Sequence record: NC_105512.1
Length of the DNA: 64,000 nt
Source of the DNA: Escherichia phage JLBYU43
Reading direction: 5' to 3' (one strand)
Positions 27,669 to 38,965 of this stretch are shown piece after piece. The notes under the pieces are model-generated. The model was given only the letters and a program-made list of their open reading frames with translations, had not been told where the DNA came from and did no database searches. The position numbers and the translations under genes were made by a program. The number at the start of each line of letters is the position of its first letter. Within the stretch, counting starts at the first letter, position 1.

Positions 27669-27744
27669 TGGTAGTTAGTAGTGGAGTTGAACCACTGTAG
27701 TCGCTCCGTATGAAGGAGGTGCATAACCACTCTGCCAACTAACT
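27669..27744 (-). tRNA. tRNA with anticodon CAU (Met or Ile2)
   Basis: 7-bp acceptor stem, T-arm AGTGG-TTCAACT-CCACT, encoded CCA, loop TTCATAC. Confidence 0.55.
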
Positions 27745-27750
27745 ATAATT

Positions 27751-27825
27751 TGGTACCCAATCTAGGTTACGATCCTAGGTCTGAGAGTTATCGGCTCTCT
27801 GTTCTACCATTGAACTAATCGGGCT
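27751..27825 (-). tRNA. tRNA-Ile (GAU)
   Basis: perfect D-arm and anticodon stem, encoded CCA; unusual T-loop ATCGTAA. Confidence 0.5.
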
Positions 27826-28390
27826 TTTTAATACTTTTGGGATCTTTTCCTGTTAAGGCTTTATATCTTTTTCTTAAGCCATTATCAGAATAACCAAGTT
27901 CTTTAGCTGCTCTGACCCAGGAATAGTTAGATACCCAATATTCAATTTGTTCAGCAGATACACTATTATCTTTTACTTTTGACTCGCTATAATGTTTAAG
28001 ACAATAAGTAGACTTACCCGCTATTCTTATTCCACAGACTTTGCAAAAACTTTGTTTGGGCGGAGATATTCCCCTATCAAAACAAGTTTTCTCATAATGA
28101 TCCAGTTTAGACCTCACTATCAGGTTATCTAAATCATTATTAGATATATCTGTATCATCGTGATCTACTTCTAAATCAGAGGTTAATGAGGGTAGATCTT
28201 TATATACTCTCGCTAATGCTCTGCTTAGTAGTATATTTTTAGTTCCATTTTCGACGCCGAAATATTTATACCCAGTAGTATTAGTACGTATACTAAGTAA
28301 TTTATTACTTATTTTGGAATATACTCTACCCTCTCTAGAAATTAAATAATCTGGATACTCTGGTATTTCCTTAAATTCTGTTAAGTCCAT
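27815..28390 (-). CDS. HNH homing endonuclease
   Basis: NUMOD4-like N-terminus and HNH motif (EVDHDD...N). Confidence 0.7.
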   Translation of the reverse strand: MDLTEFKEIPEYPDYLISREGRVYSKISNKLLSIRTNTTGYKYFGVENGTKNILLSRALARVYKDLPSLTSDLEVDHDDTDISNNDLDNLIVRSKLDHYEKTCFDRGISPPKQSFCKVCGIRIAGKSTYCLKHYSESKVKDNSVSAEQIEYWVSNYSWVRAAKELGYSDNGLRKRYKALTGKDPKSIKKPD

Positions 28391-28683
28391 TACATCATCT
28401 CGTCTAGGTAAGAAGTATACTGGTATTTAGCTTCACCAGTTTTAGCTACTTCGACTTCTGTTCTAGGTACTTTTCGTACCAGACCATGAATCATCTTATA
28501 GTTAAGAGACTTAGATGGTTCGTGATCTTTTGGAAAGACTTGTTTAACCGTTACTACTTTGAAGCCTTCACGAGGTGTTAATACAACAACTTGATCACCT
28601 TCTTTAATTTTCCAGGACTCAGGAAATTCATAAGTGTAGCGTTGACCACCAGTTTGGAACACGACAGAAAGATAACGTTTCAT
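28390..28683 (-). CDS. hypothetical protein
   Basis: 97-aa ORF behind an early promoter. Confidence 0.5.
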   Translation of the reverse strand: MKRYLSVVFQTGGQRYTYEFPESWKIKEGDQVVVLTPREGFKVVTVKQVFPKDHEPSKSLNYKMIHGLVRKVPRTEVEVAKTGEAKYQYTSYLDEMM

Positions 28684-28757
28684 TTGGTTTCCCTCTCATT
28701 AATTTATATAAATATTATAACAAGAAATAAGAGAGAAGGCAAATGAATTTTTAAATT

Positions 28758-28832
28758 TGGTGCTCCCACCAGGAGTCGAACCTAGTTCAGATGCTTACAA
28801 GGCAACTGCATCGCCAGCAATGCTTTAGGAGC
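28758..28832 (-). tRNA. tRNA-Thr (UGU)
   Basis: acceptor and T-arm fold, CCA encoded, loop CTTGTAA. Confidence 0.6.
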
Positions 28833-28999
28833 AATAAACCCGTCATTTCAACGGGATTTCTTTTTCAAATACAGGAGACTTATCAGACATTACTGTCATC
28901 GCCAACTGCTGAAGAAACTCGAAGGATAGTGCTAGGCGTTCGTCACCAAGCTCAATCTCTACACGTTTCTTTTGTTTGTCAACCTTTAGTTTCAGGTTA

Positions 29000-29221
29000 T
29001 CAGCCATCTTCGGATTCTAGTTGCTCGGCTACTGCTAGCCAGTCTGGTAAAAGAAACTTAGTACGAAACTCTTCATAAGGTTCTTCTGGATAAAAGCTAA
29101 AATTTGCTTTCTCATCATTTAATAAAACCGAACCGTCTTCCTGTTCATAAGCTCGGTATGTTTCACCAATAATTAAAACTCGTCTATTAGGATTTTTATT
29201 ACGAAACTCAAAAACGTCCAT
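29000..29221 (-). CDS. hypothetical protein
   Basis: 73-aa ORF. Confidence 0.45.
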   Translation of the reverse strand: MDVFEFRNKNPNRRVLIIGETYRAYEQEDGSVLLNDEKANFSFYPEEPYEEFRTKFLLPDWLAVAEQLESEDG

Positions 29222-29236
29222 AACGTTTCCTTAAAT

Positions 29237-29311
29237 TGGTGCGGGATACGAGAGTCGAACTCGTGTCTACTGGTTGGAAGCCAGTTATTCTAGCCACTGA
29301 ACTAATCACGC
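29237..29311 (-). tRNA. tRNA-Gly (UCC)
   Basis: T-arm ACGAG-TTCGACT-CTCGT, CCA encoded, loop CTTCCAA. Confidence 0.6.
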
Positions 29312-29318
29312 ATTCGTT

Positions 29319-29394
29319 TGGCTGGAGAAGGAGGAATCGAACCTACCATTAACGGAGTCAAAGGCCGCTGTGCTAACCGTTACACTACTCTCCA
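29319..29394 (-). tRNA. tRNA-Gln (UUG)
   Basis: U1-A72 acceptor with discriminator G as in Gln tRNAs; loop CTTTGAC. Confidence 0.55.
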
Positions 29395-29400
29395 ATTGTT

Positions 29401-29476
29401 TGGCTGGAGTGCCTGGGATCGAACCAGGAACCTTCGGAGTCAGAGGCCGACGATCTGCCAATTGATCTACACTCCA
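29401..29476 (-). tRNA. tRNA-Gln (CUG)
   Basis: perfect acceptor TGGAGTG/CACTCCA, discriminator G, loop CTCTGAC. Confidence 0.55.
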
Positions 29477-29484
29477 ATAATTCT

Positions 29485-29685
29485 TCACTCTACAGGAACC
29501 GTGGCTATTGGTTCTGGTTCTTCTAGACGTTTGCCTTCATGATCTACACGAATAACACCACAACCTTCACAGATTACAACAGCACCGTAGCCTTCTTTAA
29601 CTTCGGCTTCTGTAATCAGACCAGAAAGATCACCAGTATCTCTACCCCACATATCAATGGAGCATTGTTTGCAGAAATCAGCCAT
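29485..29685 (-). CDS. small zinc-ribbon protein
   Basis: 66 aa with CxxC...CxxC. Confidence 0.45.
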   Translation of the reverse strand: MADFCKQCSIDMWGRDTGDLSGLITEAEVKEGYGAVVICEGCGVIRVDHEGKRLEEPEPIATVPVE

Positions 29686-29710
29686 ATTTTATTTCCTATT
29701 TAAGTTAACT

Positions 29711-29787
29711 TGGGGTGGCTAGTGGAATTCGAATCCACATAGGCCTGATTCACAATCAGGATCATTAACCAATTATGATATAGCCAC
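29711..29787 (-). tRNA. tRNA-His (GUG)
   Basis: extra 5' G (G-1), discriminator C, loop TTGTGAA, CCA encoded. Confidence 0.7.
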
Positions 29788-30255
29788 AATTGAAAACTCG
29801 CAGTGTTAGCGAAACCATCCTCAAATAGCATTTTCTAGAATACTAATCAAGTTATCTCCTATTGCACGCAGCTCAAGACGAGTACGAATTTTCAATTGTG
29901 GCGGCTCTCCGAAACTCATCACACTAACAACTAGTTGATTACACCTGGATTCTCGCCCAGGAAATTCTCTAGAAAGGCGCACCGTTACACTTTGAGCCAT
30001 TGAATGGGATGGTCTCTCATCCCTACTAACTACTTGATCCTTACGATCCGTCGGTTAGCACGAGCAGCGACCCTTCATATATTGTATAGTGCTCAGAAGG
30101 TCATTAGAAGCACTTATCAAGAAGCAGAAGGACTTGAACCTTCACGAGATAGACCATTTATCTCAGCCTCGTTTTCGGGTATCTTATGAGGAGTGGATGT
30201 TCCCCTTACGCCCTTTAGGAAGCCCCGTCTACCGATTCCGGCATACTTCAAGATT

Positions 30256-30350
30256 TGGAGGTAGGTAAGGGGATCGAACCCTTACACCGTATCACTACGA
30301 TCAACCGATTTCAAGTCGGAGTCCAGCGCCAGCCATTGGATTGACCTACC
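30256..30350 (-). tRNA. tRNA-Ser (UGA), long variable arm
   Basis: perfect acceptor GGTAGGT/ACCTACC, CCA encoded, loop CTTGAAA, 95 nt. Confidence 0.55.
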
Positions 30351-30362
30351 GTATAAATTGTT

Positions 30363-30456
30363 TGGCGGAAAAGATGGGAGTTGAACCCATAAGGCGGTAT
30401 TGCTACCACTCAACCGATTTCCAATCGGGTTTAGTCACCAGTCTATTTGCTTTTCC
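30363..30456 (-). tRNA. tRNA-Ser (GGA), long variable arm
   Basis: perfect acceptor GGAAAAG/CTTTTCC, CCA encoded, loop TTGGAAA. Confidence 0.5.
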
Positions 30457-31027
30457 GTTGTTCTGTTAATACTTTTGGGCTTAATCCGGTTAGTTTAGTA
30501 TATCGTCTACGTAAAGTGGACTCTGATACTTCTAGATCTTTAGCTGCCTTAACCCACCCCATTAATAATACCTTTTCAGTTATGTCTTCTAAGGACAATT
30601 CTGGTTTTATTAACTTTCCTGTAGGTTTTGGCTTACAATTTGTACATGTTACTGATCTCTGAAGCATTAGATTTCCACATAAGGGGCAAGGTACTCTACT
30701 ATCAGACCATCCATTATCTTTATTAGTTTTCTTCTGATGTTCTATTTTTGATAAAACTTGAAGATTATCTTTAGATAGATTCAGCCTATCTCTATCCTTG
30801 TGATCTACTTCTAATTCAGGGTCAAATAGATTATATAAGTCCCCAAATACATGAGAAATAATTCGGTGTATAAGTACCGAAGTTTGCTTACCATTTATCT
30901 GTAATTTTACAGCAGGGTATCCATCAACTATATATCTTGATAAAATTTTATTAGTAAATGTAGATAACACATCCCCTGTTTCATTTACTAAATACCCTGG
31001 TGCATCTTTTATTGGTACAAACTGCAT
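30443..31027 (-). CDS. HNH homing endonuclease
   Basis: NUMOD4-like N-terminus, HNH motif EVDHKDRDRLN, Cys-rich zinc ribbon. Confidence 0.7.
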   Translation of the reverse strand: MQFVPIKDAPGYLVNETGDVLSTFTNKILSRYIVDGYPAVKLQINGKQTSVLIHRIISHVFGDLYNLFDPELEVDHKDRDRLNLSKDNLQVLSKIEHQKKTNKDNGWSDSRVPCPLCGNLMLQRSVTCTNCKPKPTGKLIKPELSLEDITEKVLLMGWVKAAKDLEVSESTLRRRYTKLTGLSPKVLTEQRKSK

Positions 31028-31043
31028 ACATTACCCTATAAGT

Positions 31044-31128
31044 TGGTGGGGCTAGGGAGACTCGAACTCCCACGCATTTAAGCTACGGAATCTAAGGCCG
31101 TATTGTCTACCAGTTCCAGCATAGCCCC
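31044..31128 (-). tRNA. tRNA-Leu (UAG), long variable arm
   Basis: perfect acceptor GGGGCTA/TAGCCCC, CCA encoded, loop CTTAGAT. Confidence 0.55.
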
Positions 31129-31133
31129 AAATT

Positions 31134-31207
31134 TGGTGGAGAAAGAGGGAGTTGAACCCTCGTCTTCTGCGTGCAAAGCAGATGTTCTACCATTAAACTA
31201 TATCCCC
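31134..31207 (-). tRNA. tRNA-Ala (UGC)
   Basis: G3-U70 wobble (Ala identity element), loop TTTGCAC, CCA encoded. Confidence 0.6.
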
Positions 31208-31467
31208 AAATTCTTTAGTTTACTAAGGCTATTAGCTCGGTGTGCGTATTACCCTCAGACATTAGCCAGTAGAGGATAACCGCTCTTCACAAACCCGATA
31301 CACTATTCAGTTGCCGCTGAATCTAGTGGACTAATCTAGAACTTCTCCCGAGTCGTAGGGATTGTGCTTTTTGGCAGCCAGTCCTAGGTCGAGCTAATAC
31401 CTTAGTGAACTTTGATGAGGATTTCTCCTCATCAATTTATATAAATATTATAACAAGAAATTAAACA

Positions 31468-31827
31468 TTAAGCAAGTACATTTTTGCAGATTTCTTGTAT
31501 TTCCTTAACGTCACTAACGAAAAGGTAATCAGAGCTTCCAGAGTGCATACTCTGCATAACCACACCACCATCCGGTGCATCTTCTTTCAAAGTAATACCT
31601 AACCAGAACTTGGCAAAACTAGGTGTTACCTCACCTTGACTTGCCTTGAACACATCGCCTTCTGTGATCTCTTGACCAGTGGAGAGTCCCATGTATGGTA
31701 CGTTCAGATCAATATCTTTGTAGAACTCAGCTAGATCTTGCTCGAAATCCCAACCTTTAGAGATAGCGAACTCCATTGTTACATGACCGAAATAGCCTTG
31801 AACCTTGCTTGATAATTGCATTTGCAA
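31468..31827 (-). CDS. hypothetical protein
   Basis: 119-aa ORF. Confidence 0.5.
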   Translation of the reverse strand: MQMQLSSKVQGYFGHVTMEFAISKGWDFEQDLAEFYKDIDLNVPYMGLSTGQEITEGDVFKASQGEVTPSFAKFWLGITLKEDAPDGGVVMQSMHSGSSDYLFVSDVKEIQEICKNVLA

Positions 31828-31846
31828 TTCCTTATTTTGAGTTAAT

Positions 31847-31920
31847 TGGTACTCGGTGATAGAATCGAACTATCGCAACCGCCGTGTAAAGACGGGGTTC
31901 TCCCATTAAACTAACCGAGC
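31847..31920 (-). tRNA. tRNA-Val (UAC)
   Basis: T-arm GATAG-TTCGATT-CTATC, loop TTTACAC, CCA encoded. Confidence 0.55.
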
Positions 31921-31924
31921 AATT

Positions 31925-32002
31925 TGGTGGATTGCCTGGGATTCGAACCCAGAACTGACGGATTAAAGGTCCGCTACTCTTATCCAGTTGAGCTAGCAAT
32001 CC
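31925..32002 (-). tRNA. tRNA-Lys (UUU)
   Basis: perfect acceptor GGATTGC/GCAATCC, loop CCTTTAA (C at position 33), CCA encoded. Confidence 0.5.
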
Positions 32003-32466
32003 AATTTTTCTACTAATAATTTAAAAGCATCTAGTACAGGTACTTCAAACCATTCTCCAGATACTATATAATCTTTAAGAAGATTATGTAATTCTTTCTC
32101 TGTACGTCTTTTATCCGACGAAAATCTGAAATGGTATAGCTTGTAGTCTCTATTAGGTGAATAAGTTTGATAACTTGCTAACCTCTCATTCACATCTATA
32201 GTCATACCTATTTTATACATGCCTGGCCATGCTGGATTACCAATTACATATACAAAACCTTCCGTTATAGGTATTTTATGCTCCCTTTTATACTTTAAGA
32301 GATTTAAGGCTGCCATTCGATAACAGAATCTAAACTCTGAAGTTTTTAACTTACCTTCTTTACCTGAAATTTCGTTATATTTGCTCATATAAGCTCTTAT
32401 GAGCTTATCATCTATAATGAAGTTATCAGGAAGGTTTAAGGCAGATAAAACTTTATTAATTAGCAT
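31993..32466 (-). CDS. T5orf172-domain protein (GIY-YIG-like)
   Basis: motif VYVIGNPAWPGMYKIGMT...ERL...YQTYSP. Confidence 0.55.
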   Translation of the reverse strand: MLINKVLSALNLPDNFIIDDKLIRAYMSKYNEISGKEGKLKTSEFRFCYRMAALNLLKYKREHKIPITEGFVYVIGNPAWPGMYKIGMTIDVNERLASYQTYSPNRDYKLYHFRFSSDKRRTEKELHNLLKDYIVSGEWFEVPVLDAFKLLVEKLDC

Positions 32467-32641
32467 AGACTTCCTTAATAGAATAAACTTTTAAGTAAGG
32501 GTGATTAATACCAAATTCCGCCATCACTTCGTTTTCATCTTTACCGTAATGGGCTAGTGGATACTTCTTACGATCTTTGCTAGAACGCAGATCACTTACT
32601 TTTAAACGAAATAATTTCATTTCGAAATCCTTCTATTAAAT

Positions 32642-32719
32642 TGGAAGCGGGTGTAGGAATCGAACCTACCTCTTTCTAGCTTATGAGACTAGCGATCTCT
32701 ACCAGAGATCTAACCCGCA
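32642..32719 (-). tRNA. tRNA-Met (CAU)
   Basis: loop CTCATAA, T-arm GTAGG-TTCGATT-CCTAC, CCA encoded; 1-72 pair mismatched. Confidence 0.5.
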
Positions 32720-32725
32720 ATTGTT

Positions 32726-32803
32726 TGGTCTCCGTGGGAGGATTTGAACCCCCGACCCTACCGCCCCAAACGGAACGCTCTGGCCAAACTGAGCTACACG
32801 GAG
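32726..32803 (-). tRNA. tRNA-Pro (UGG)
   Basis: perfect acceptor CTCCGTG/CACGGAG, loop TTTGGGG, CCA encoded. Confidence 0.6.
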
Positions 32804-33119
32804 AATATTCTTTGTTAACTCACTTTATAAGATATATTATACAGAGAATTAAGTGAAATAGCAAATGAATTTTTAATAAATTTACTTATTGCGTAGGCCA
32901 CCTGGAGGGTTCAAGCCCCACGGCTGACAAAGAAGTTTGCGAGACTTCTCTTAAATGCCAGAATAGACCCGCCGATCTATCGGAACCTACATAATAAGTA
33001 AACTTTCGTTTACCTACACCTACCTGGTCGGGAGGATTTTCAGCGACTAGAACCGGCCGGAAACTCATCGCCTTGTTTACCCTGTAGTCCCACTATAAGT
33101 GACGCGACCTACAAAGATT

Positions 33120-33193
33120 TGGTGCGGTCGGAGGGAATCGAACCCTCAACTTCTGGTTGGCAACCAAAAATTATACCTTTTAACTACGAACGC
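33120..33193 (-). tRNA. tRNA-Gly (GCC)
   Basis: T-arm GAGGG-TTCGATT-CCCTC, loop TTGCCAA, CCA encoded. Confidence 0.5.
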
Positions 33194-33406
33194 ATAATGA
33201 GTCAATCTAGGTAGGACTTGAACCTACTATCACTTGTGCGGATTTACGAGAACCATTCTTTCACTCGAATCGAACGAGCTTCTACCCTCGGCAAGCTGGT
33301 GTCCCCTCTCCACCACGCTAGAATGATAATTAATGCCTGCTCCTTTGAATCAAGAAGTCCACCCCGGACTTTGGGTCTTTGCAGTACATCACGCTGCTCT
33401 GATGTT

Positions 33407-33483
33407 TGGTACACCCACTAGGACTTGAACCTAGAACCCTCCGCTTAAGAGGCGGTAGCTCTAACCAATTGAGCTATGGATGT
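33407..33483 (-). tRNA. tRNA-Lys (CUU)
   Basis: acceptor ACATCCA/TGGGTGT, loop CTCTTAA, CCA encoded. Confidence 0.5.
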
Positions 33484-33489
33484 ATAATT

Positions 33490-33542
33490 TGGCGGTACTA
33501 AGGGTAATCGAAACCCTACCTCTCCCGTGACAGGGGAGTACC
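33490..33542 (-). tRNA. compact tRNA-like element without D-arm (anticodon loop GUC, Asp-like)
   Basis: 53 nt: acceptor-like stem, hairpin CTCCC-CTGTCAC-GGGAG, T-arm AGGGT-TTCGATT-ACCCT, CCA encoded; no room for a D-arm. Confidence 0.3.
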
Positions 33543-33574
33543 ATTACCAAGCCAGCCCCGATCGCATAATTTAT

Positions 33575-33760
33575 TTACTCAGCTTTGAGTTTTTCGATAG
33601 CTTCCTCAACCTCTTTTAGAGCTTCACGACGCTCTACTTGACCTTGAAGTTCTTCAAGAAGTTCAGCTTTCAGAGCCTTAATAATATTACCACGAACCTT
33701 AATATTATTAATCATATTATCACGATCAGCTTCTAGTCGAGCAATTGCACGAGTTGTCAT
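33575..33760 (-). CDS. small coiled-coil protein
   Basis: 61-aa charged ORF. Confidence 0.35.
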   Translation of the reverse strand: MTTRAIARLEADRDNMINNIKVRGNIIKALKAELLEELQGQVERREALKEVEEAIEKLKAE

Positions 33761-33787
33761 ATCTATTTCCTCAGTTGTTAGTGAAAT

Positions 33788-33873
33788 TGGCGGGCCGTGT
33801 AGGAGTTGAACCTACTTTATCCTTGCGGATACGGATTAACAGTCCGGCGCTTAAACCGTTCAGCCAACGACCC
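33788..33873 (-). tRNA. tRNA with anticodon GUU (Asn-type loop) and long variable arm
   Basis: 86 nt; acceptor GGGTCGT/ACGGCCC, loop CTGTTAA, variable hairpin ATCC-GCAA-GGAT, CCA encoded. Confidence 0.5.
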
Positions 33874-34025
33874 TAAATTTATATTGCTGACTAGGATTTT
33901 CACCTAGACGGAGTTAGCACCGTAGCGTGTAGCGGCATACCTCTCCAAACCGTGCCTCATCTTTCAATTACTGAGGCAGTGTTCCTACGCGTGCCTGAAC
34001 TGTTTTAACAATTCTTTCAGCAAAT

Positions 34026-34101
34026 TGGACGACCGCATGAGATTCGAACTCACATAAAAAGGATTTGCAATCCTTCGCCTAAGCCATTCAGCCAACAGTC
34101 G
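34026..34101 (-). tRNA. tRNA-Cys (GCA)
   Basis: loop TTGCAAA on a perfect AAGGA/TCCTT stem, discriminator U, CCA encoded. Confidence 0.6.
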
Positions 34102-34282
34102 ATTTATCTTGTTTTTCGAGATCTTCAAATTCTAGATTTATAGAATGTCCTATGGACCTAGCATAATAGCTATCTCCAGCATCAGTATCTCTTTCAATTT
34201 GGTACAACCTGTACGCAACGATCGTACCTCTTCTCCTTTTCAGGGAGATACTAATCCTTCTCAGTTAAAGTTGCATATTATC

Positions 34283-34353
34283 TGGCAGGGGTAAAGGTAT
34301 TCGAAACCTTTTCATGGGTTTTGGAGGCCCACTAGCAACCTATGCGTACCCCA
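34283..34353 (-). tRNA. tRNA-Trp (CCA)
   Basis: 3' end CCCCTGCCA as in E. coli tRNA-Trp, loop CTCCAAA. Confidence 0.55.
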
Positions 34354-34362
34354 ATTATTAAT

Positions 34363-34437
34363 TGGCACACCCACGGAGAATTGAACTCCGATTCTCAGAT
34401 TGAAATCCTGATGTCCTAACCATTAGACGATAGGTGC
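34363..34437 (-). tRNA. tRNA-Glu (UUC)
   Basis: Glu-type D-arm GTCTAATGGTTAGGAC, loop ATTTCAA, CCA encoded. Confidence 0.55.
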
Positions 34438-34445
34438 ATTAATTT

Positions 34446-34526
34446 TGGTGGGGGATGGAGGACTCGAACCTCCGCGTGGTATACCCGGTCTACAGCCAGG
34501 CGCCGTCGCCACTGAGCCAATCCCCC
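34446..34526 (-). tRNA. tRNA, probable anticodon GUA (Tyr)
   Basis: perfect acceptor GGGGGAT/ATCCCCC and T-arm, CCA encoded; anticodon arm fold ambiguous. Confidence 0.45.
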
Positions 34527-34632
34527 ATATTTGAATGAAAAGTAAGTCGGTTAAACTCAAAGTGGAATATTTCAGGAAATCCTGACTTTACCCCTAAAAG
34601 CAACTCGCTTAATTACTTCTCATTCAGATATG

Positions 34633-34661
34633 TTTCCAAAGTAGATAACTATTATATCAAG
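34633..34661 (-). promoter_or_regulatory. sigma70 promoter upstream of the tRNA cluster (TTGCTC-17-TATAAT)
   Basis: consensus -10 and 17-bp spacer on the minus strand; a 13-bp-stem hairpin lies immediately upstream at 34662-34701; ~110-nt leader before tRNA-Tyr. Confidence 0.5.
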
Positions 34662-34715
34662 TTTTATGGCACTGAGCAAGTCAGATTTTAAAGAACTTGC
34701 TCAGTGCTATATCAG

Positions 34716-35009
34716 TTAATCAAATGAAGGAGTGACTTTCAAAGTGAATGGAAGTTCGAATACCTCTTCACCTTCATCAGTAACAGTGACTACTCGACCC
34801 TCTAGATTATTCATGCTGATTTCAACATCAGCCGTAGCATCAGGAGCCATACCAGCCTCAATACATTGAGCTTTGATCTCTGGAAGAAGTTCTACATTGT
34901 AGAAATAAAGCCACTCGATCTCACCTTCCCAACCACCCCAGGATTTACATACTGAGCTTTCAATACCAGTTGCTGTAACACGTTTTGACATTCTGATTCC
35001 TCTCATCAA
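34716..35009 (-). CDS. hypothetical protein
   Basis: 97-aa ORF. Confidence 0.5.
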   Translation of the reverse strand: MMRGIRMSKRVTATGIESSVCKSWGGWEGEIEWLYFYNVELLPEIKAQCIEAGMAPDATADVEISMNNLEGRVVTVTDEGEEVFELPFTLKVTPSFD

Positions 35010-35080
35010 TTTATATAACTATTATATCAGAAATTTAAGGCAAAAGGCAAGTACATTTTTAAAAATTCTGTTTGGAGGAG

Positions 35081-35287
35081 TTAAAGACCGGATTCATCAG
35101 CCAGATCTAGACCAATAAGGGTGATTGCCATGATTGCAGCAGCCTGTTCTTTTTCACTCACATCTTTAGCAGACGCGATAATCTTTTCAAATTGTGATTT
35201 AAAATCTGCTACTTCAGCTTCTAAACCAGCTTCAGCAATAATGCCTTTCACCATAATACGCTGCGTCATAATTTCAGGATTTGCCAT
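35081..35287 (-). CDS. hypothetical protein
   Basis: 68-aa ORF. Confidence 0.4.
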   Translation of the reverse strand: MANPEIMTQRIMVKGIIAEAGLEAEVADFKSQFEKIIASAKDVSEKEQAAAIMAITLIGLDLADESGL

Positions 35288-35462
35288 TTGTTTTCTCCAG
35301 TTTCATTTTTAGTATTTTGCAAACAAAGTCAATATCTTCATCCGTGCCTAGATCTCTATCTTCAAGGGTTGCCTTGAAATTTTTTGTTAGTTCCATAAGA
35401 ATAACTTCCCTGGAACGACGTGTTGGCGGAGGTGGATGTCTATACATCTTAATTCCTTAATT

Positions 35463-35537
35463 TGGTGGGTCGGAGGAGAATCTAACTCCTACTCGTTAGC
35501 TTATGAGGCCACCGCTTTAACTTTAAGCTACCGACCC
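35463..35537 (-). tRNA. tRNA with anticodon CAU (Met/fMet/Ile2)
   Basis: perfect acceptor GGGTCGG/CCGACCC, loop CTCATAA, CCA encoded; anticodon stem weak. Confidence 0.5.
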
Positions 35538-35543
35538 TATGTT

Positions 35544-35632
35544 TGGAGGAAGAAGTGGGAATCGAACCCACAAGGCTATATTTCAAACTGACAGATTAGC
35601 AATCTGCTGCAATACCGTTATGCTATTCTTCC
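35544..35632 (-). tRNA. tRNA-Ser (GCU), long variable arm
   Basis: perfect acceptor GGAAGAA/TTCTTCC, loop TTGCTAA, CCA encoded. Confidence 0.55.
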
Positions 35633-35653
35633 GAATTTATAAGATATATTATA

Positions 35654-36172
35654 TTAGAAATTTAGCTTCATAGCAAGAAAATTTTTCAAGTTTTCGGTAG
35701 ACATCTCATCCACATCTACAGGAGAAACAAATCCATTTAATTGTTTAGCAAATTTTTCACCTGCAGGATCATTATCCCCAACAGCTACCAATTTAAAAGG
35801 TAGTAATTTCAATTGCTTTAACAACGCTTTTCCAGGGGAAGAACCCAACATTGCTAGGGCTGGATAACCAGCATTATGTAATGCAACTGCCTTAAATACA
35901 GATTCAGCAATCAATACTACTTTTTCATCTCCATTGAGAGTTTCTAGTCCCCATACACACTGGGTAGTAGAATAAGTAAAATATTTAGCTTCAAAGGGAC
36001 ACTTACCATGACCTTTTGGAGCAGAAGGATTATAAGTTTGATAGCCCCTCAACATCCCAGAGAAATCATATAACGGGACTGTTAGCCATCCTTCCGGACT
36101 TAACCAGCAATGATATTTTTCTGTATCAAATCCCCTAGATAGAAGGTGCTGTGTTAGCTCATCAACACTCAT
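35654..36172 (-). CDS. Toprim-domain protein (primase-like)
   Basis: conserved Glu (LIAES) and DxD (VAVGDNDPAG) typical of DnaG-type Toprim. Confidence 0.45.
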   Translation of the reverse strand: MSVDELTQHLLSRGFDTEKYHCWLSPEGWLTVPLYDFSGMLRGYQTYNPSAPKGHGKCPFEAKYFTYSTTQCVWGLETLNGDEKVVLIAESVFKAVALHNAGYPALAMLGSSPGKALLKQLKLLPFKLVAVGDNDPAGEKFAKQLNGFVSPVDVDEMSTENLKNFLAMKLNF

Positions 36173-36210
36173 ATTTGATCTCCTAGTTAGTTTTATAAAT
36201 ACATTATATA

Positions 36211-36242
36211 GAAAAGCCCGCGCTCTCGGAGGAAACGCGGGC
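36211..36242 (-). terminator. rho-independent terminator
   Basis: AGCCCGCG/CGCGGGCT stem followed by a U-tract on the minus strand. Confidence 0.5.
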
Positions 36243-36267
36243 TTGTTTCGAAGATTACGTGTAACTA

Positions 36268-37284
36268 TTACTTATTACGCATATCCATAATCATCTGGCC
36301 ATCATAACCAGTACCTACAACAGTCTGAGGAACGCCACCCTGATATTTTTCAGCGCGTTTCATATCAACTTCCAGCTGCTTCCAACGAATCATTTCAGGA
36401 GTAATGGTACGTTGCAGAGCGGCGTTAGCTTCAGCTTCTTTCTTAGCTGCGTACAGTTTAGCATCTGCGTCACGTTCGTTAGCTACTGCCATATTTTCAC
36501 GAGCAGAACGATCAGCTTCAGCTTGCTTAACTTTCTGCTGTGCTTCTTGTTCAACACGAGCTAGTTCAGCTTTTGCAGCGTTAACTTGTTCTTCACGAAC
36601 TTTTGTGTTTTGTACCTGTTCCATGATTACCGGTGGCAGAGTAATATCCTGAAGGAATACTTGCTTAACGGTGTAACCATAAGGACGCGCGTACTCTTCT
36701 ACTTCTTGCTGAATAGCGGTTTGCAGTTGAGCCTGAATCTTAGCGTCGAACAGATCTTGTGCTTTTGGTACAGACTTACCAAACTCACGAATCGTAGACA
36801 GCATCTTCTCTTCAACGTACTTGTTCAGAGCTTGATCCTGAGTACCTGCGTTAATACGGTTAATCGGTGCCTTAGAACCATCAAACTGCAACATAACAGT
36901 CAAGTCAACAGTGGATTTAAACTTATCCTGGCTAGGAACCTGAAGTTTATCTAATTTTACAGCAATATCTTTTGTACTAAAAGTATCGAAAGATGCAAAC
37001 GGGTTTACAAGATGGAAACCAGGCAATACTGGATTAGGATCTACTTTACCCAGAAATGTTTGGGTTTTAACCGTACCATCAGAAACAATAGTATATGAAT
37101 TAAAAGCTAGAATCAAGCCTGCTAAACCAACTACAGCACCAATACCCCAACGTTTAATAGTATATGAATTAAAAGCTAGAATCAAGCCTGCTAAACCAAC
37201 TACAGCACCAATACCCCAACGTTTAATAGTACGAATTACTTTCTGCTCAGAAGTCAGTTCTTTCATATTTTTAGTATTAAACAT
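36268..37284 (-). CDS. SPFH/band-7 (prohibitin, HflC-like) membrane protein
   Basis: N-terminal TM anchor, SPFH core, C-terminal coiled coil; contains an exact 69-bp tandem duplication. Confidence 0.7.
   Translation of the reverse strand: MFNTKNMKELTSEQKVIRTIKRWGIGAVVGLAGLILAFNSYTIKRWGIGAVVGLAGLILAFNSYTIVSDGTVKTQTFLGKVDPNPVLPGFHLVNPFASFDTFSTKDIAVKLDKLQVPSQDKFKSTVDLTVMLQFDGSKAPINRINAGTQDQALNKYVEEKMLSTIREFGKSVPKAQDLFDAKIQAQLQTAIQQEVEEYARPYGYTVKQVFLQDITLPPVIMEQVQNTKVREEQVNAAKAELARVEQEAQQKVKQAEADRSARENMAVANERDADAKLYAAKKEAEANAALQRTITPEMIRWKQLEVDMKRAEKYQGGVPQTVVGTGYDGQMIMDMRNK
37087..37231. repeat. 69-bp perfect tandem duplication (2.1 copies)
   Basis: 37088-37156 is identical to 37157-37225; in frame, duplicating the TM segment of the SPFH protein. 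Confidence 0.85.
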
Positions 37285-37318
37285 ATGTTTCCTTTGTTTT
37301 AGTTACAGTTAATAAAAT

Positions 37319-37393
37319 TGGCCGAGGTGACAGGATTCGAACCTGCATAAAGGAATTTAGAAGACTCCTGCCTATCCCTTAGACTACACCCCG
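37319..37393 (-). tRNA. tRNA-Arg (UCU)
   Basis: T-arm GCAGG-TTCGAAT-CCTGT, loop CTTCTAA, CCA encoded. Confidence 0.55.
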
Positions 37394-37995
37394 TTTAGGT
37401 ATTTTTAAGAACTCTCGTAAAAGTCCTTAAAGATACCCAACGGTAGGTAGGGTCAGCCCCCTCAGATTAAGCTCTGCAGCCCTTCCGTCAGACAATATCT
37501 TCCAGTTTAAGTCAAGGTGACTTTGTGGTTATGTTCTCCGTATGTGAAGAACTCGGTTAGGCTTAGGTCATGACTCCCAGCCTACTGCTGCCGCTCAACA
37601 GGAATTATCGCGAATTACCTGTACTATTGGGCACCATTAGTGACATCTCTCATGTCAGCATTTCCCACTTTGTGGATAGCTTGAAAAACTACTCCGATAT
37701 GGAGAAAGAACTTCACTATCCTAGAAATACCTTCTAAAGTTCTTCTTTAGCCTGGACATAGTTAAATCGTAATAAAACTATTCAGCAGACTAGTTGGTTA
37801 GCCTGGAACCAACTACCGCGTGGTTTAGGCAGTGCGTAACTAACCTAGGAAGCTTTTACGTTAAAAGCATCAGTTATCCAGTTCTTACCGACCGTAGGAT
37901 TCGAACCTACATCTTCCACCAGTTACGGCTTGATAATACCAATTATACTAGGACGGCAGTGTTACTACATAAGTGATTTCCACACACCACTATTA

Positions 37996-38521: not shown

Positions 38522-38965
38522 TTAATTAAATTCGCCAGCAACCTGAGCAGCAATGCCACCGTCGTAACGACCAGGAAACTCTTCCTTAATCGCTTTCATC
38601 AGCATACCTTTTGTAATCCCAGGATTCAACTTAACTAATTCTGCAAAGTATTTGCGAATCTCAGAATCAGATAACTGAGGCGGCAGATACTGCTGTAACC
38701 ATTTGTTCAGTATATATTCATACTGAGCAGACTGCAAGCTATAATTATCAAGGTCTTGACCGTGAAGTTTAGCTTTCGTCTGATTAATGCTTTTCAGTTG
38801 AGCTTTTAGATAAGATACAAACTGTTCAGAAGTAATGAAGTCTTTATCAACACGCTGAAGATCTCCGATTATGGTCTGGTAGCTTTTAGCTACTTCTTTA
38901 TCAGAACCATTAAACTTGGATTCCTGCAAAGCCCTACGCAAAACATCTAGAATATTCTCTTCCAT
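38522..38965 (-). CDS. GatB/YqeY-domain protein
   Basis: 147 aa; C-terminal pattern (GITKGMLMKAIKEEFPGRYDG) resembles the YqeY family. Confidence 0.5.
   Translation of the reverse strand: MEENILDVLRRALQESKFNGSDKEVAKSYQTIIGDLQRVDKDFITSEQFVSYLKAQLKSINQTKAKLHGQDLDNYSLQSAQYEYILNKWLQQYLPPQLSDSEIRKYFAELVKLNPGITKGMLMKAIKEEFPGRYDGGIAAQVAGEFN

What the first reader, a model, noticed from the sequence alone, without database searches (positions are those of the whole stretch)
27669..37393. tRNA island with about 26 minus-strand tRNA genes that all encode the 3' CCA
By manual folding I find tRNAs with acceptor/T-arm complementarity for Thr, Gly(x2), Gln(x2), His, Ser(x3), Leu, Ala, Val, Lys(x2), Met/CAU(x3), Pro, Ile, Asn-like, Cys, Trp, Glu, Tyr-like and Arg. 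Every one has a genomically encoded CCA, which gives an internal criterion separating them from CCA-less tRNA-like fragments. Several carry unusual features: U1-U72 mismatches, C33 in two loops, and an aberrant T-loop in tRNA-Ile.
Basis: seen in the sequence. Interest (0 to 1): 0.4.

Follow-up and report, generated by a model that had tools for sequence, protein, structure and literature searches.

The report
T5-type phage tRNA gene island
This stretch is the well-known tRNA-rich region of a T5-like phage: 26 tRNA genes, all with a built-in CCA end, that let the phage keep translating when host tRNAs are scarce or destroyed, so it is real but ordinary for this phage family.

Summary
Window 27669-37393 holds 26 cloverleaf tRNA genes, all on the minus strand and all ending in an encoded CCA. 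ARAGORN finds 23 at default settings. Rfam's tRNA model supports 23 at or above its gathering score. Ser(UGA) and Trp(CCA) need relaxed settings, and Trp is never found by the covariance model.

A 27th CCA-ending element (33490-33565) is a broken tRNA-Asp chimera, so CCA is not a clean test of function.

The window is a T5-like phage (Markadamsvirinae, about 90-94% identical to known genomes). The island is syntenic with the annotated and experimentally studied tRNA region of T5: the same order of tRNA genes, and homologues of T5's promoters, stable RNAs and F-TflI endonuclease.

Most likely function: a nearly complete, host-processed decoding set. It reads 73-84% of the phage codons in this window. 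It should sustain phage translation and, as shown for T5 tRNA-Lys, Thr, Asn and Tyr, bypass tRNA-cleaving defences.

C33 and the T-loop swap (A54/U58) recur at about 2-3% in unrelated phage tRNAs.

Verdict: a new member of a known kind, of low interest.

The parts
27669..27744 (-). tRNA-Met(CAU), elongator type, CCA encoded
   Evidence: ARAGORN; RF00005 49.5 bits; 99% identical to T5 tRNAM.
27751..27824 (-). tRNA-Ile(GAU) with C33 and an A54/U58 T-loop (ATCGTAA)
   Evidence: ARAGORN; 55.5 bits; arms; the minimum-energy fold is a perfect cloverleaf, z = -2.4; 100% identical in phages phiR2-01 and KKP_3831.
28758..28832 (-). tRNA-Thr(UGU)
   Evidence: 46.7 bits. Positions 36-41 read UAAGCA, as in T5 tRNA-Thr.
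29237..29476 (-). Tandem tRNA-Gly(UCC) 29237-29311, tRNA-Gln(UUG) 29319-29394 and tRNA-Gln(CUG) 29401-29476, with 6-7 nt spacers
   Evidence: 65.5, 48.6 and 58.5 bits; arms.
29711..29787 (-). tRNA-His(GUG); acceptor stem identical to E. coli hisR but with T instead of G at position -1
   Evidence: 59.9 bits; comparison with hisR and 8 relatives.
30256..30350 (-). tRNA-Ser(UGA), long variable arm, CCA encoded
   Evidence: Relaxed ARAGORN; tRNA-Sec model 37.6 bits; cloverleaf minimum-energy fold; occupies the position of T5 tRNAS1.
30363..30456 (-). tRNA-Ser(GGA)
   Evidence: ARAGORN at default settings; tRNA-Sec model 43.9 bits; 95% identical to T5 tRNAS2.
31044..31207 (-). Tandem tRNA-Leu(UAG) 31044-31128 and tRNA-Ala(UGC) 31134-31207
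   Evidence: 39.7 and 72.3 bits. Leu is 100% identical to T5.
31847..32002 (-). Tandem tRNA-Val(UAC) 31847-31920 and tRNA-Lys(UUU) 31925-32002; the Lys has C33
   Evidence: 57.8 and 59.9 bits. Lys loop is CCTTTAA with stem GCGGA/TCCGT. Same allele in rutana and phiR2-01.
32642..32803 (-). Tandem CAU tRNA 32642-32719 (initiator-like, U1-U72 mismatch) and tRNA-Pro(UGG) 32726-32803
   Evidence: 46.2 and 53.3 bits. The CAU tRNA is 99% identical to T5 'tRNAfM, initiator'. G2-C71, C3-G70 and A11-U24 are present; the three G-C pairs of the anticodon stem are absent.
33120..33193 (-). tRNA-Gly(GCC); T5 annotates no tRNA gene at the corresponding place
   Evidence: 61.1 bits.
33407..33483 (-). tRNA-Lys(CUU)
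   Evidence: 63.9 bits.
33490..33565 (-). Chimeric tRNA-Asp pseudogene: the 5' two-thirds match T5/rutana tRNA-Asp, the 3' T-arm and acceptor strand are foreign, the acceptor stem is broken, and it still ends GCCA
   Evidence: Alignments; 25.6 bits, below the cut-off; acceptor pairing |xx|:x; no cloverleaf fold; shared with phages smaug and phagemcphageface.
33788..33873 (-). tRNA-Asn(GUU), 86 nt, with a 15-nt variable arm
   Evidence: 54.7 bits; 100% identical in rutana.
34026..34101 (-). tRNA-Cys(GCA)
   Evidence: 46.4 bits.
   Evidence: RF00005 40.0 bits with all stems standard; relaxed ARAGORN; orthologues with compensatory changes in the acceptor stem and D-stem.
34283..34353 (-). tRNA-Trp(CCA)-like, 71 nt, U1-U72 mismatch, 3-bp D-stem, G73
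   Evidence: Relaxed ARAGORN only; no covariance-model hit; annotated tRNA-Trp in T5 and 96-100% conserved in T5, SPC35, KPP2018 and rutana.
34363..34526 (-). Tandem tRNA-Glu(UUC) 34363-34437 and tRNA-Tyr(GUA) 34446-34526
   Evidence: 55.6 and 49.9 bits. A homologue of T5 promoter P14a lies just upstream at 34623-34697.
35463..35632 (-). Tandem CAU tRNA 35463-35537 (in the position of T5 tRNA-Ile2; T-loop TTAGATT, D-loop AAAGTTA) and tRNA-Ser(GCU) 35544-35632
   Evidence: 60.6 and 59.9 bits.
37319..37393 (-). tRNA-Arg(UCU)
   Evidence: 49.3 bits; 99% identical to T5.
37394..37957 (-). Homologue of T5 'RNAX' (a stable RNA of unknown function). It contains a CCA-less tRNA-like element at 37886-37957 that has acceptor, D and T arms but no proper anticodon arm
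   Evidence: blastn to the T5 features; RF00005 35.5 bits with the anticodon arm unaligned.
30115..30252 (-). Homologue of T5 'RNA1' (tRNA-like stable RNA) with a T-arm hairpin at 30127-30143 and no CCA
33201..33325 (-). Homologue of T5 'RNA2' (tRNA-like stable RNA) with two T-arm hairpins (33211-33227 and 33263-33279) and no CCA
27815..28390 (-). HNH homing-endonuclease gene, 54% identical to T5 F-TflII; its TAG stop codon is U8-A9-G10 of tRNA-Ile
   Evidence: Pfam and PHROGs; blastp; coordinates.
30443..31027 (-). HNH homing endonuclease, orthologue of T5 F-TflI (96% identical); its 3' end overlaps tRNA-Ser(GGA) by 14 nt
31993..32466 (-). T5orf172/MUG113-domain ORF (putative GIY-YIG-like endonuclease); its TAG stop codon is U8-A9-G10 of tRNA-Lys(UUU)
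   Evidence: The ORF and the C33 Lys allele are also linked in rutana and phiR2-01.
28688..35696 (-). Homologues of the promoters annotated in T5: P11 28688-28762, P13b 31421-31496, P13a 32820-32883, P14a 34623-34697, P15c 34998-35069, P15b 35621-35696
   Evidence: 89-99% identical to the T5 promoter features. Four of them contain a 10-of-12 sigma-70 consensus match on the minus strand.

Best explanation
This is the tRNA-rich region of a T5-like phage (Demerecviridae, Markadamsvirinae). It holds 26 tRNA genes for 19 amino acids, interleaved with small ORFs, homing-endonuclease genes and tRNA-like stable-RNA genes, all transcribed leftward.

Shown here:
- The genes, their cloverleaf structures and their encoded CCA ends.
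- Synteny and orthology with the T5 island.
- Homologues of the promoters annotated in T5.

Inferred mechanism:
- Host RNA polymerase transcribes the island from several strong T5-type promoters, giving multi-gene precursors. Twelve tRNA junctions have spacers of only 4-12 nt.
- Host RNase P cuts the 5' ends.
- The A/U-rich trailers (CCA is followed by A in 25 of 26 genes) are removed by RNase E and 3' exonucleases, which stop at the encoded CCA. Maturation therefore follows the host's own pathway and needs no CCA addition.
- The mature tRNAs are charged by host synthetases and read 73-84% of the phage codons in this window.

Inferred benefit:
- The set favours the A-ending codons that the phage uses and E. 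coli avoids.
- By analogy with experiments on T5 and SP15, it keeps translation running when host tRNAs are depleted or cut by defence nucleases (PARIS AriB for Lys, Thr and Asn; retron-Eco7 PtuAB for Tyr).

Homing endonucleases inserted at the 5' edges of tRNA genes help explain why about half of the tRNAs are replaced by divergent alleles of the same specificity.
For: Identity of the island:
- The island matches 555 phage records, nearly all T5-like. The flanking 24 kb is 90-93% identical to T5-like genomes.
- The T5 record AY543070 annotates the same order of tRNAs, including Phe, Trp, 'initiator fMet' and Ile2(CAU), together with promoters, stable RNAs and F-Tfl endonucleases. These features map onto the window at 81-99% identity.

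Gene quality:
- 23 tRNAs by ARAGORN at default settings and 23 by the Rfam tRNA model.
- Stems are intact.
- Covariation is seen at the tertiary pairs 54-58 and 19-56, and compensatory changes in the acceptor stem and D-stem of Phe orthologues.

CCA as a family trait: 207 of 210 tRNAs in 9 related islands end in CCA.

Codons:
- The set covers 73% of window codons under strict wobble rules and 84% if U34 also reads U.
- AGA, CUA, AUA, GGA, GUA, ACA and CCA are 2- to 8-fold enriched relative to an E. coli sample, and each is the Watson-Crick codon of a phage U34 or CAU tRNA.

Published function in close relatives:
- T5 tRNA-Lys neutralises PARIS (PMC11464382).
- T5 Lys, Thr and Asn together suffice (PMC12409363).
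- The roughly 8-kb tRNA-rich region is dispensable in the laboratory, but its tRNA-Tyr rescues phage from retron-Eco7 (PMC11555353).
- The window's tRNA-Thr carries the same UAAGCA site as T5, and its tRNA-Lys carries the A41C change.
Against: - No expression, processing or charging data exist for this phage.
- Trp is not recognised by covariance models. The T5 record notes that its Trp, Phe and several other tRNAs did not become amber suppressors when the anticodon was changed.
- tRNA-His lacks the encoded G-1 that E. coli HisRS normally needs.
- The window's Lys(UUU) keeps the host-like U39, and its Asn keeps the host-like UAAUCC site. Resistance to PARIS is therefore not predicted with confidence (PMC12409363).
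- A test of codon enrichment over all cognate codons is not significant (p = 0.23).
- The promoter consensus scan as a whole is at chance level (29 found against 28.7 expected).
Confidence: 0.88

Rival explanations
1. Pure codon-usage compensation. The tRNAs exist only to supply isoacceptors for codons that are frequent in the AT-rich phage and rare in the host, and they have no role against host defences.
For: The phage uses AGA, AGG, CUA, AUA, GGA, GUA, ACA and CCA far more than an E. coli sample does. It encodes exactly the U34 or CAU tRNAs that read them. In every four-codon family with a single phage tRNA, that tRNA is the U34 species.
Against: - The set also includes tRNAs for codons that are not enriched, such as AAA, GAA and AAG, and the overall test is not significant (p = 0.23).
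- In T5 and SP15 the region is dispensable on ordinary hosts but is needed against PARIS and retron-Eco7 (PMC11464382, PMC11555353).
- This explanation is not exclusive of the main one.
Confidence: 0.3
2. Selfish-element mosaic. The island's make-up mainly reflects homing endonucleases that target tRNA genes and drag flanking tRNA alleles between co-infecting phages. On this view the odd nucleotides (C33, A54/U58) are neutral hitch-hikers or changes that protect against the endonuclease.
For: - Four endonuclease-type ORFs lie in or beside the island, and three end inside the 5' part of a tRNA gene.
- Identity to T5 is bimodal: 12 tRNAs at 92-100% and 13 at 52-82%.
- The C33 Lys allele is always linked to the T5orf172 ORF.
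- Homing endonucleases in the tRNA regions of T4 and T5 are documented (PMC2330249).
Against: - This explains allele turnover but not why a full decoding set is kept with intact structures and tertiary covariation.
- C33 in Ile(GAU) occurs on at least five different backbones, with and without an adjacent endonuclease gene.
Confidence: 0.25
3. Largely decayed relics. Many of the genes are pseudogenes or tRNA-like decoys that no longer act in translation.
For: - The island contains a chimeric Asp pseudogene.
- It also has four CCA-less T-arm fragments and homologues of T5's tRNA-like stable RNAs.
- Trp has a minimal D-arm.
- T5 annotates Gln2 as a pseudogene and reports several failed suppressor conversions.
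Against: - 23 of 26 genes pass the Rfam tRNA cut-off.
- Stems are intact, and deviations at conserved tertiary positions are compensated.
- Several T5 orthologues are functional suppressors or rescue infection (PMC11464382; PMC11555353).
Confidence: 0.04

Closest known systems
tRNA gene region (tRNA-rich region, TRR) of Escherichia phage T5, GenBank AY543070
   Same: - Same gene order and strand.
- 12 tRNAs are 92-100% identical.
- All genes encode CCA.
- Homologues are present of T5 promoters P11, P13a, P13b, P14a, P15b and P15c; of stable RNAs III, 1, 2H, IV, 2 and X; of endonuclease F-TflI (96%); and of the Toprim ORF T5.076 and the SPFH protein.
   Different: - 13 tRNAs are divergent alleles at 52-82% identity.
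- Gly(GCC) and Lys(CUU) are present here, whereas T5 annotates no such tRNA genes.
- tRNA-Asp is a broken chimera here.
- Gln(CUG) is intact here but marked as a pseudogene in T5.
- C33 in Ile and Lys, and A54/U58 in Ile and Phe, are absent from T5.
- An extra F-TflII-like endonuclease lies upstream of Ile.
tRNA islands of Epseptimavirus phages (Salmonella phage rutana, Yersinia phage phiR2-01)
   Same: Many alleles are identical: Gly, Val, Lys(UUU) with C33, fMet-like, Pro, Asn, Trp, Glu and Arg in rutana, and Ile(GAU) in phiR2-01. The T5orf172 ORF lies upstream of Lys in the same way.
   Different: Rutana has 29 tRNAs, including intact Asp, a second Arg and a second Leu, and carries PnuC and NadR genes inside the island. 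The window lacks all of these.
Phage T4 tRNA gene cluster
   Same: It is a compact cluster of tandem tRNA genes processed from multi-gene precursors by host RNase P, with a homing endonuclease (SegB) embedded in it (PMC2330249).
   Different: T4 has 8 tRNAs. From established knowledge, some T4 tRNA genes lack an encoded CCA and depend on the host CCA-adding enzyme. Here every gene encodes CCA.
Nuclease-resistant phage tRNA variants (T5 tRNA-Lys/Thr/Asn against PARIS AriB; T5/SP15 tRNA-Tyr against retron-Eco7)
   Same: The same isoacceptors are present. tRNA-Thr has the same 36-41 sequence as T5, and Lys(UUU) has the A41C change (PMC12409363).
   Different: Lys(UUU) keeps U39, the position whose change to A abolished cleavage, and has C33 instead. 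Asn has the host-like site. tRNA-Tyr is only 67% identical to the T5 gene.

Membership tests
Canonical tRNA (Rfam RF00005 / ARAGORN cloverleaf) | Covariance-model score at or above the 29-bit gathering threshold | tested here: met
   22 genes in the whole-window scan, plus Phe at 40.0 bits with relaxed filters. Not met by Ser(UGA) and Ser(GGA), where only sub-threshold tRNA-Sec hits are shown, or by Trp, which has no hit.
Canonical tRNA (Rfam RF00005 / ARAGORN cloverleaf) | Seven-pair acceptor stem, 5-bp anticodon and T stems, 7-nt loops, discriminator base followed by CCA | tested here: met
   Arm-by-arm table for all 26 genes. The chimeric Asp fails, with 3 unpaired positions (and 2 G-U) among its 7 acceptor pairs.
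Canonical tRNA (Rfam RF00005 / ARAGORN cloverleaf) | Invariant U33, T54-A58 and G19-C56 | tested here: not met
   Ile and Lys(UUU) have C33. Ile and Phe have A54/U58. The CAU tRNA at 35463-35537 has A56, with G-U in its D-loop where G18-G19 is normally found. The other genes conform.
T5-type tRNA-rich region of Markadamsvirinae | Synteny and orthology with the T5 island (tRNA order, flanking genes, F-Tfl endonucleases, stable RNAs, promoters) | tested here: met
T5-type tRNA-rich region of Markadamsvirinae | Early transcription and production of mature tRNAs in infected cells | not testable with these tools
   Only promoter homology and the published T5 work are available.
T5-type tRNA-rich region of Markadamsvirinae | Dispensable on laboratory hosts but required against tRNA-targeting defences | not testable with these tools
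   Shown for T5 and SP15 (PMC11464382, PMC11555353), not for this phage.
PARIS-resistant tRNA-Lys(UUU) of T5 | U39-to-A change (Mut1), which abolishes AriB cleavage | tested here: not met
   The window's Lys(UUU) reads UAAUCC at positions 36-41 and keeps U39 (PMC12409363).
PARIS-resistant tRNA-Lys(UUU) of T5 | A41-to-C change (Mut2), which substantially inhibits cleavage | tested here: met
   C41 is present.
Bacterial initiator tRNA-fMet (for the CAU tRNA at 32642-32719) | Unpaired 1-72 position with G2-C71 and C3-G70 | tested here: met
   U1-U72 mismatch, with acceptor strands TGCGGGT and ACCCGCT. The T5 orthologue is annotated as the initiator.
Bacterial initiator tRNA-fMet (for the CAU tRNA at 32642-32719) | Three consecutive G-C pairs at the bottom of the anticodon stem | tested here: not met
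   The stem is CTAGT/GCTAG.

The most novel reading that the evidence does not exclude
The departures from near-universal tRNA nucleotides seen here are not noise. They are C33 in Ile(GAU) and Lys(UUU), and the A54/U58 swap of the T54-A58 pair in Ile and Phe.

Evidence that they recur:
- In 729 unique tRNAs from unrelated phage contigs, C33 occurs in 14.
- In 660 of those tRNAs with a parsable T-arm, the A54/U58 swap occurs in 19. It appears on many backbones and is more than twice as frequent as any single-sided change.
- A review of the T-loop describes U54 as universally conserved, with the eukaryotic initiator tRNA as the special case (PMC7912444).

The novel reading is that phages repeatedly select these variants to escape host enzymes that read U33 or T54. 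Candidates are nucleases that cut at 32/33 (as CdiA-CT EC536 does in tRNA-Ile(GAU), PMC11724271) or at 33/34 (PrrC, from established knowledge), and T-loop-directed nucleases or modification enzymes.
Probability: 0.2. Interest if true: 0.55.

Novelty: new member of a known kind. Interest (0 to 1): 0.2.

Why it matters
As a tRNA island it adds little. T5-like phages are known to carry such regions, and their role against tRNA-cleaving defences has been shown by experiment.

Its modest value lies in the detail:
- It shows how one lineage mixes conserved and replaced tRNA alleles next to homing endonucleases.
- It offers natural variants at U33, T54-A58 and G19-C56, and a tRNA-His without G-1. 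These could be tested for resistance to anticodon nucleases and for what the translation machinery tolerates.
- It is a practical reminder that default tRNA finders miss 2-4 genes in such islands.

Tried and rejected
- The search for related loci with the 61-aa ORF at 33575-33760 returned only 3 loci. I switched to annotated GenBank relatives.
- blastn-short at E < 1e-4 missed the divergent alleles. Global alignment was used instead.
- The whole-window and 16-kb Rfam scans missed tRNA-Phe because of the speed filters. A 251-nt scan recovered it at 40 bits.
- Folding-energy z-scores do not discriminate: Trp -0.4, Ser(UGA) -0.45, the CCA-less element -0.9.
- The sigma-70 consensus scan was at chance overall. 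Promoters were placed by homology to the T5 annotation instead.
- The test for enrichment of all Watson-Crick cognate codons was not significant (p = 0.23).
- The test for enrichment of C33 in Ile(GAU) against other phage tRNAs was not significant (p = 0.10).
- The donor of the foreign 3' part of the Asp chimera was not found in any fetched locus.
- Covariation analysis of Trp was impossible because its orthologues are 96-100% identical.
- I considered and rejected the idea that CCA presence marks function, because the chimeric Asp keeps it.
- I considered and rejected filing Lys(UUU) as a PARIS-resistant variant, because the key U39A change is absent.

Full report
**1. What is there**

ARAGORN at default settings finds 23 tRNA genes in the 64-kb window. 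Rfam at its gathering thresholds finds 22 of the same genes with the tRNA model. It also finds one further tRNA-like element at 37886-37957, outside the range.

Ser(GGA) at 30363-30456 and a second long-arm tRNA at 30260-30350 match only the tRNA-Sec model, at 43.9 and 37.6 bits. That is below the model's 47-bit cut-off. Relaxed ARAGORN adds four candidates: Ser(UGA) 30256-30350, Phe(GAA) 34200-34274, Trp(CCA) 34283-34353 and an Asp(GUC)-like element.

When 251 nt around it are searched with laxer filters, Phe scores 40.0 bits with the Rfam tRNA model and every stem is standard. Trp is never found by a covariance model.

I parsed every candidate arm by arm. Twenty-six have a seven-position acceptor stem in which at most one position is unpaired, 5-bp anticodon and T stems, 7-nt loops and a discriminator base followed by genomic CCA. 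CCA is followed by A in 25 of the 26.

**2.

- C33 occurs in Ile(GAU), loop CCGATAA, and in Lys(UUU), loop CCTTTAA. E. coli ileT and lysT have U33.
- A U1-U72 mismatch occurs in the CAU tRNA at 32642-32719 and in Trp.
- The Ile T-loop is ATCGTAA.

**3. CCA is not a clean criterion**

The element at 33490-33565 ends in GCCA. Its 5' two-thirds are identical to tRNA-Asp of T5 and rutana, while its T-arm and 3' acceptor strand are foreign. Three of its seven acceptor positions cannot pair and two more are G-U, and it does not fold as a cloverleaf. The same chimera is present in phages smaug and phagemcphageface.

Conversely, four perfect T-arm hairpins without an acceptor-plus-CCA end lie inside the island, at 30127, 33211, 33263 and 37894. 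Only one such hairpin occurs in the remaining 54 kb.

**4. What it is**

The island matches 555 phage records, nearly all T5-like phages of Salmonella, Escherichia and Klebsiella. The best matches are 90-94% identical over 71-81% of the island. The next 24 kb of the window is 90-93% identical to T5-like genomes. The window is therefore a distinct member of the Markadamsvirinae.

The richly annotated T5 record lists the same series of genes on the same strand: Met, Ile1, Thr, Gly, Gln, Gln, His, Ser1, Ser2, Leu, Ala, Val, Lys, 'initiator fMet', Pro, Asp, Asn, Cys, Phe, Trp, Glu, Tyr, Ile2(CAU), Ser3 and Arg. [quoted passage not shown]

Six T5 promoters map to the window at 89-99% identity. Stable RNAs III, 1, 2H, IV, 2 and X map at 81-97%. 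This explains the CCA-less fragments: they lie in homologues of T5 RNA1, RNA2 and RNAX.

The HNH ORF at 30443-31027 is 96% identical to F-TflI and sits in the same place. The ORF at 27815-28390 is 54% identical to F-TflII. The other ORFs are a T5orf172-domain protein, a small Toprim protein, an SPFH protein and a YqeY-like protein.

**5. Family-wide checks**

In nine related islands, 207 of 210 ARAGORN tRNAs end in encoded CCA. All 25 annotated T5 tRNA genes do so too.

Identity between the window and T5 is bimodal. Twelve tRNAs are 92-100% identical. Thirteen of the same specificity and position are only 52-82% identical. This means whole alleles have been replaced.

Three endonuclease-type ORFs end inside the 5' part of the next tRNA gene. 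Two of them use the tRNA's U8-A9-G10 as their TAG stop codon.

**6. Are the odd tRNAs functional?**

- Phe orthologues show compensatory changes: A4-U69 against C4-G69, and A10-U25 against G10-C25.
- Across 252 CCA-ending tRNA calls in ten T5-like islands, position 54 is A only when position 58 is T. There are 6 such cases, on three T-stem backgrounds, and no single-sided change.
- C56 is replaced by A in the CAU tRNA at 35463-35537, whose D-loop reads G-U where G18-G19 is expected. It is replaced by U in T5-type Ile1, whose D-loop reads G-A at that place.
- These look like compensated tertiary pairs, which argues for folded, selected tRNAs.
- Trp is 96-100% conserved among five phages while its neighbours Phe and Glu have diverged to 72% and 58%. 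It has G73, a CCA anticodon, G2-C71 and G3-C70. There is too little variation to test its structure.
- The T5 annotation notes that several of these tRNAs, Trp and Phe included, could not be turned into amber suppressors, while others could.

**7. How it most likely works**

*Shown:* the genes, their structures, the encoded CCA, the short spacers (twelve junctions of 4-12 nt) and the promoter homologues.

*Inferred from established knowledge of E. coli tRNA maturation:*
- The island is transcribed into multi-gene precursors.
- RNase P makes the 5' cuts.
- RNase E cuts in the A/U-rich trailers.
- Exonucleases trim back to the encoded CCA, as they do for host tRNAs, all of whose genes also encode CCA.

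*Decoding:* the set reads 73% of the codons of 75 window ORFs under strict wobble rules, and 84% if U34 also reads U. It lacks only Asp, Leu UUR, Arg CGN and some C-ending codons.

*Codon bias:* relative to a 14,684-codon E. coli sample, the phage over-uses AGA, AGG, CUA, AUA, GGA, GUA, ACA and CCA, and it encodes the matching tRNAs. A global test is not significant, p = 0.23.

*Published experiments on close relatives:*
- The T5/SP15 region is dispensable on plain hosts.
- T5 tRNA-Lys, with Thr and Asn, overcomes PARIS.
- tRNA-Tyr, driven by a strong promoter, overcomes retron-Eco7 (PMC11464382, PMC12409363, PMC11555353).

*Comparison with the AriB site UAAUC|A:*
- The window's Thr has the T5 form, UAAGCA.
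- Lys(UUU) has UAAUCC, carrying only the weaker A41C change.
- Asn has the host-like UAAUCC.

Resistance to PARIS therefore cannot be assumed for this phage.

**8. A wider pattern**

C33 in Ile(GAU) is found on at least five backbones: the window and phiR2-01; rutana; and three unrelated IMG/VR lineages. C33 in Lys(UUU) is found on two backbones.

In 729 unique tRNAs from unrelated tRNA-rich phage contigs, C33 occurs in 14. Among the 660 with a parsable T-arm, the A54/U58 swap occurs in 19, mostly as ATCGTTA.

A review describes U54 as universally conserved, with the eukaryotic initiator tRNA as the special case (PMC7912444). CdiA-CT EC536 cuts E. coli tRNA-Ile(GAU) between C32 and U33 (PMC11724271). 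Escape from such enzymes is a plausible reading, but it is untested.

**9. Verdict**

This is a real tRNA island, correctly read by the first stage. It is an instance of a well-described and experimentally studied feature of T5-like phages. The novelty is limited to this genome's particular mix of alleles and to a few unusual nucleotides.

Noticed in passing
window 29711-29792: tRNA-His has the same acceptor stem and C73 as E. coli hisR, but T instead of G at position -1. This holds in the window and in all 8 T5-like relatives where the gene was found (100% conserved). G-1 is the main HisRS identity element in E. coli, yet T5 notes that this tRNA converts to an effective amber suppressor.
   Followed up: partly
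window 33490-33565: CCA-ending chimeric tRNA-Asp pseudogene: the 5' part is tRNA-Asp and the 3' T-arm and acceptor strand come from an unidentified tRNA. It is shared with phages smaug and phagemcphageface. This phage therefore has no intact tRNA-Asp, although Asp makes up 6% of its codons.
   Followed up: yes
window 27815-27824, 30443-30456, 31993-32002: Three endonuclease-type ORFs end inside the 5' part of the downstream tRNA gene. In two cases the stop codon is the tRNA's conserved U8-A9-G10 (TAG).
   Followed up: partly
window 35654-36172: A small Toprim-domain ORF (homologue of T5.076, usually labelled 'DNA primase') sits inside the tRNA island. Toprim nucleases include the tRNA-cleaving AriB and OLD and the RNA-processing RNase M5, so an RNA-related role is conceivable.
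   Followed up: no
window 38522-38965: A YqeY/GatB-like ORF (the PHROG family is named 'tRNA amidotransferase') lies just beyond the island, as in the other T5-like phages.
   Followed up: no
window 33788-33873: tRNA-Asn(GUU) is 86 nt long with a 15-nt stem-loop variable arm. That shape is normally restricted to Leu, Ser and Tyr in bacteria. The gene is 100% identical in rutana but only 62% identical to the 78-nt T5 gene.
   Followed up: partly
window 35463-35537; L005 1711-1787: Apparent covariation of the tertiary 19-56 pair. The CAU tRNA has A56 in its T-loop with G-U in the D-loop. T5-type Ile1 has U56 with G-A in the D-loop.
   Followed up: partly
loci L007-L075 (IMG/VR): In unrelated tRNA-rich phage contigs, about 2% of tRNAs have C33 and about 3% have the A54/U58 swap (often ATCGTTA). 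The swap recurs in Ile, Asp, Met and His tRNAs.
   Followed up: partly
window 36173-36267, compared with L001 11797-13531: The PnuC transporter and NadR-like adenylyltransferase genes lie between the Toprim and SPFH genes in rutana and phiR2-01. They are absent here. A strong hairpin terminator follows the SPFH gene at 36214-36244.
   Followed up: no
window 29789-29894, 31287-31399, 32890-32992: Homologues of T5 stable RNAs III, 2H and IV (function unknown) are conserved at 94-97%. Two of them overlap short ORFs that may be spurious.
   Followed up: no
locus L003: A more divergent T5-like contig has C33 in Leu(UAG) and Arg(ACG) instead of Ile and Lys.
   Followed up: no
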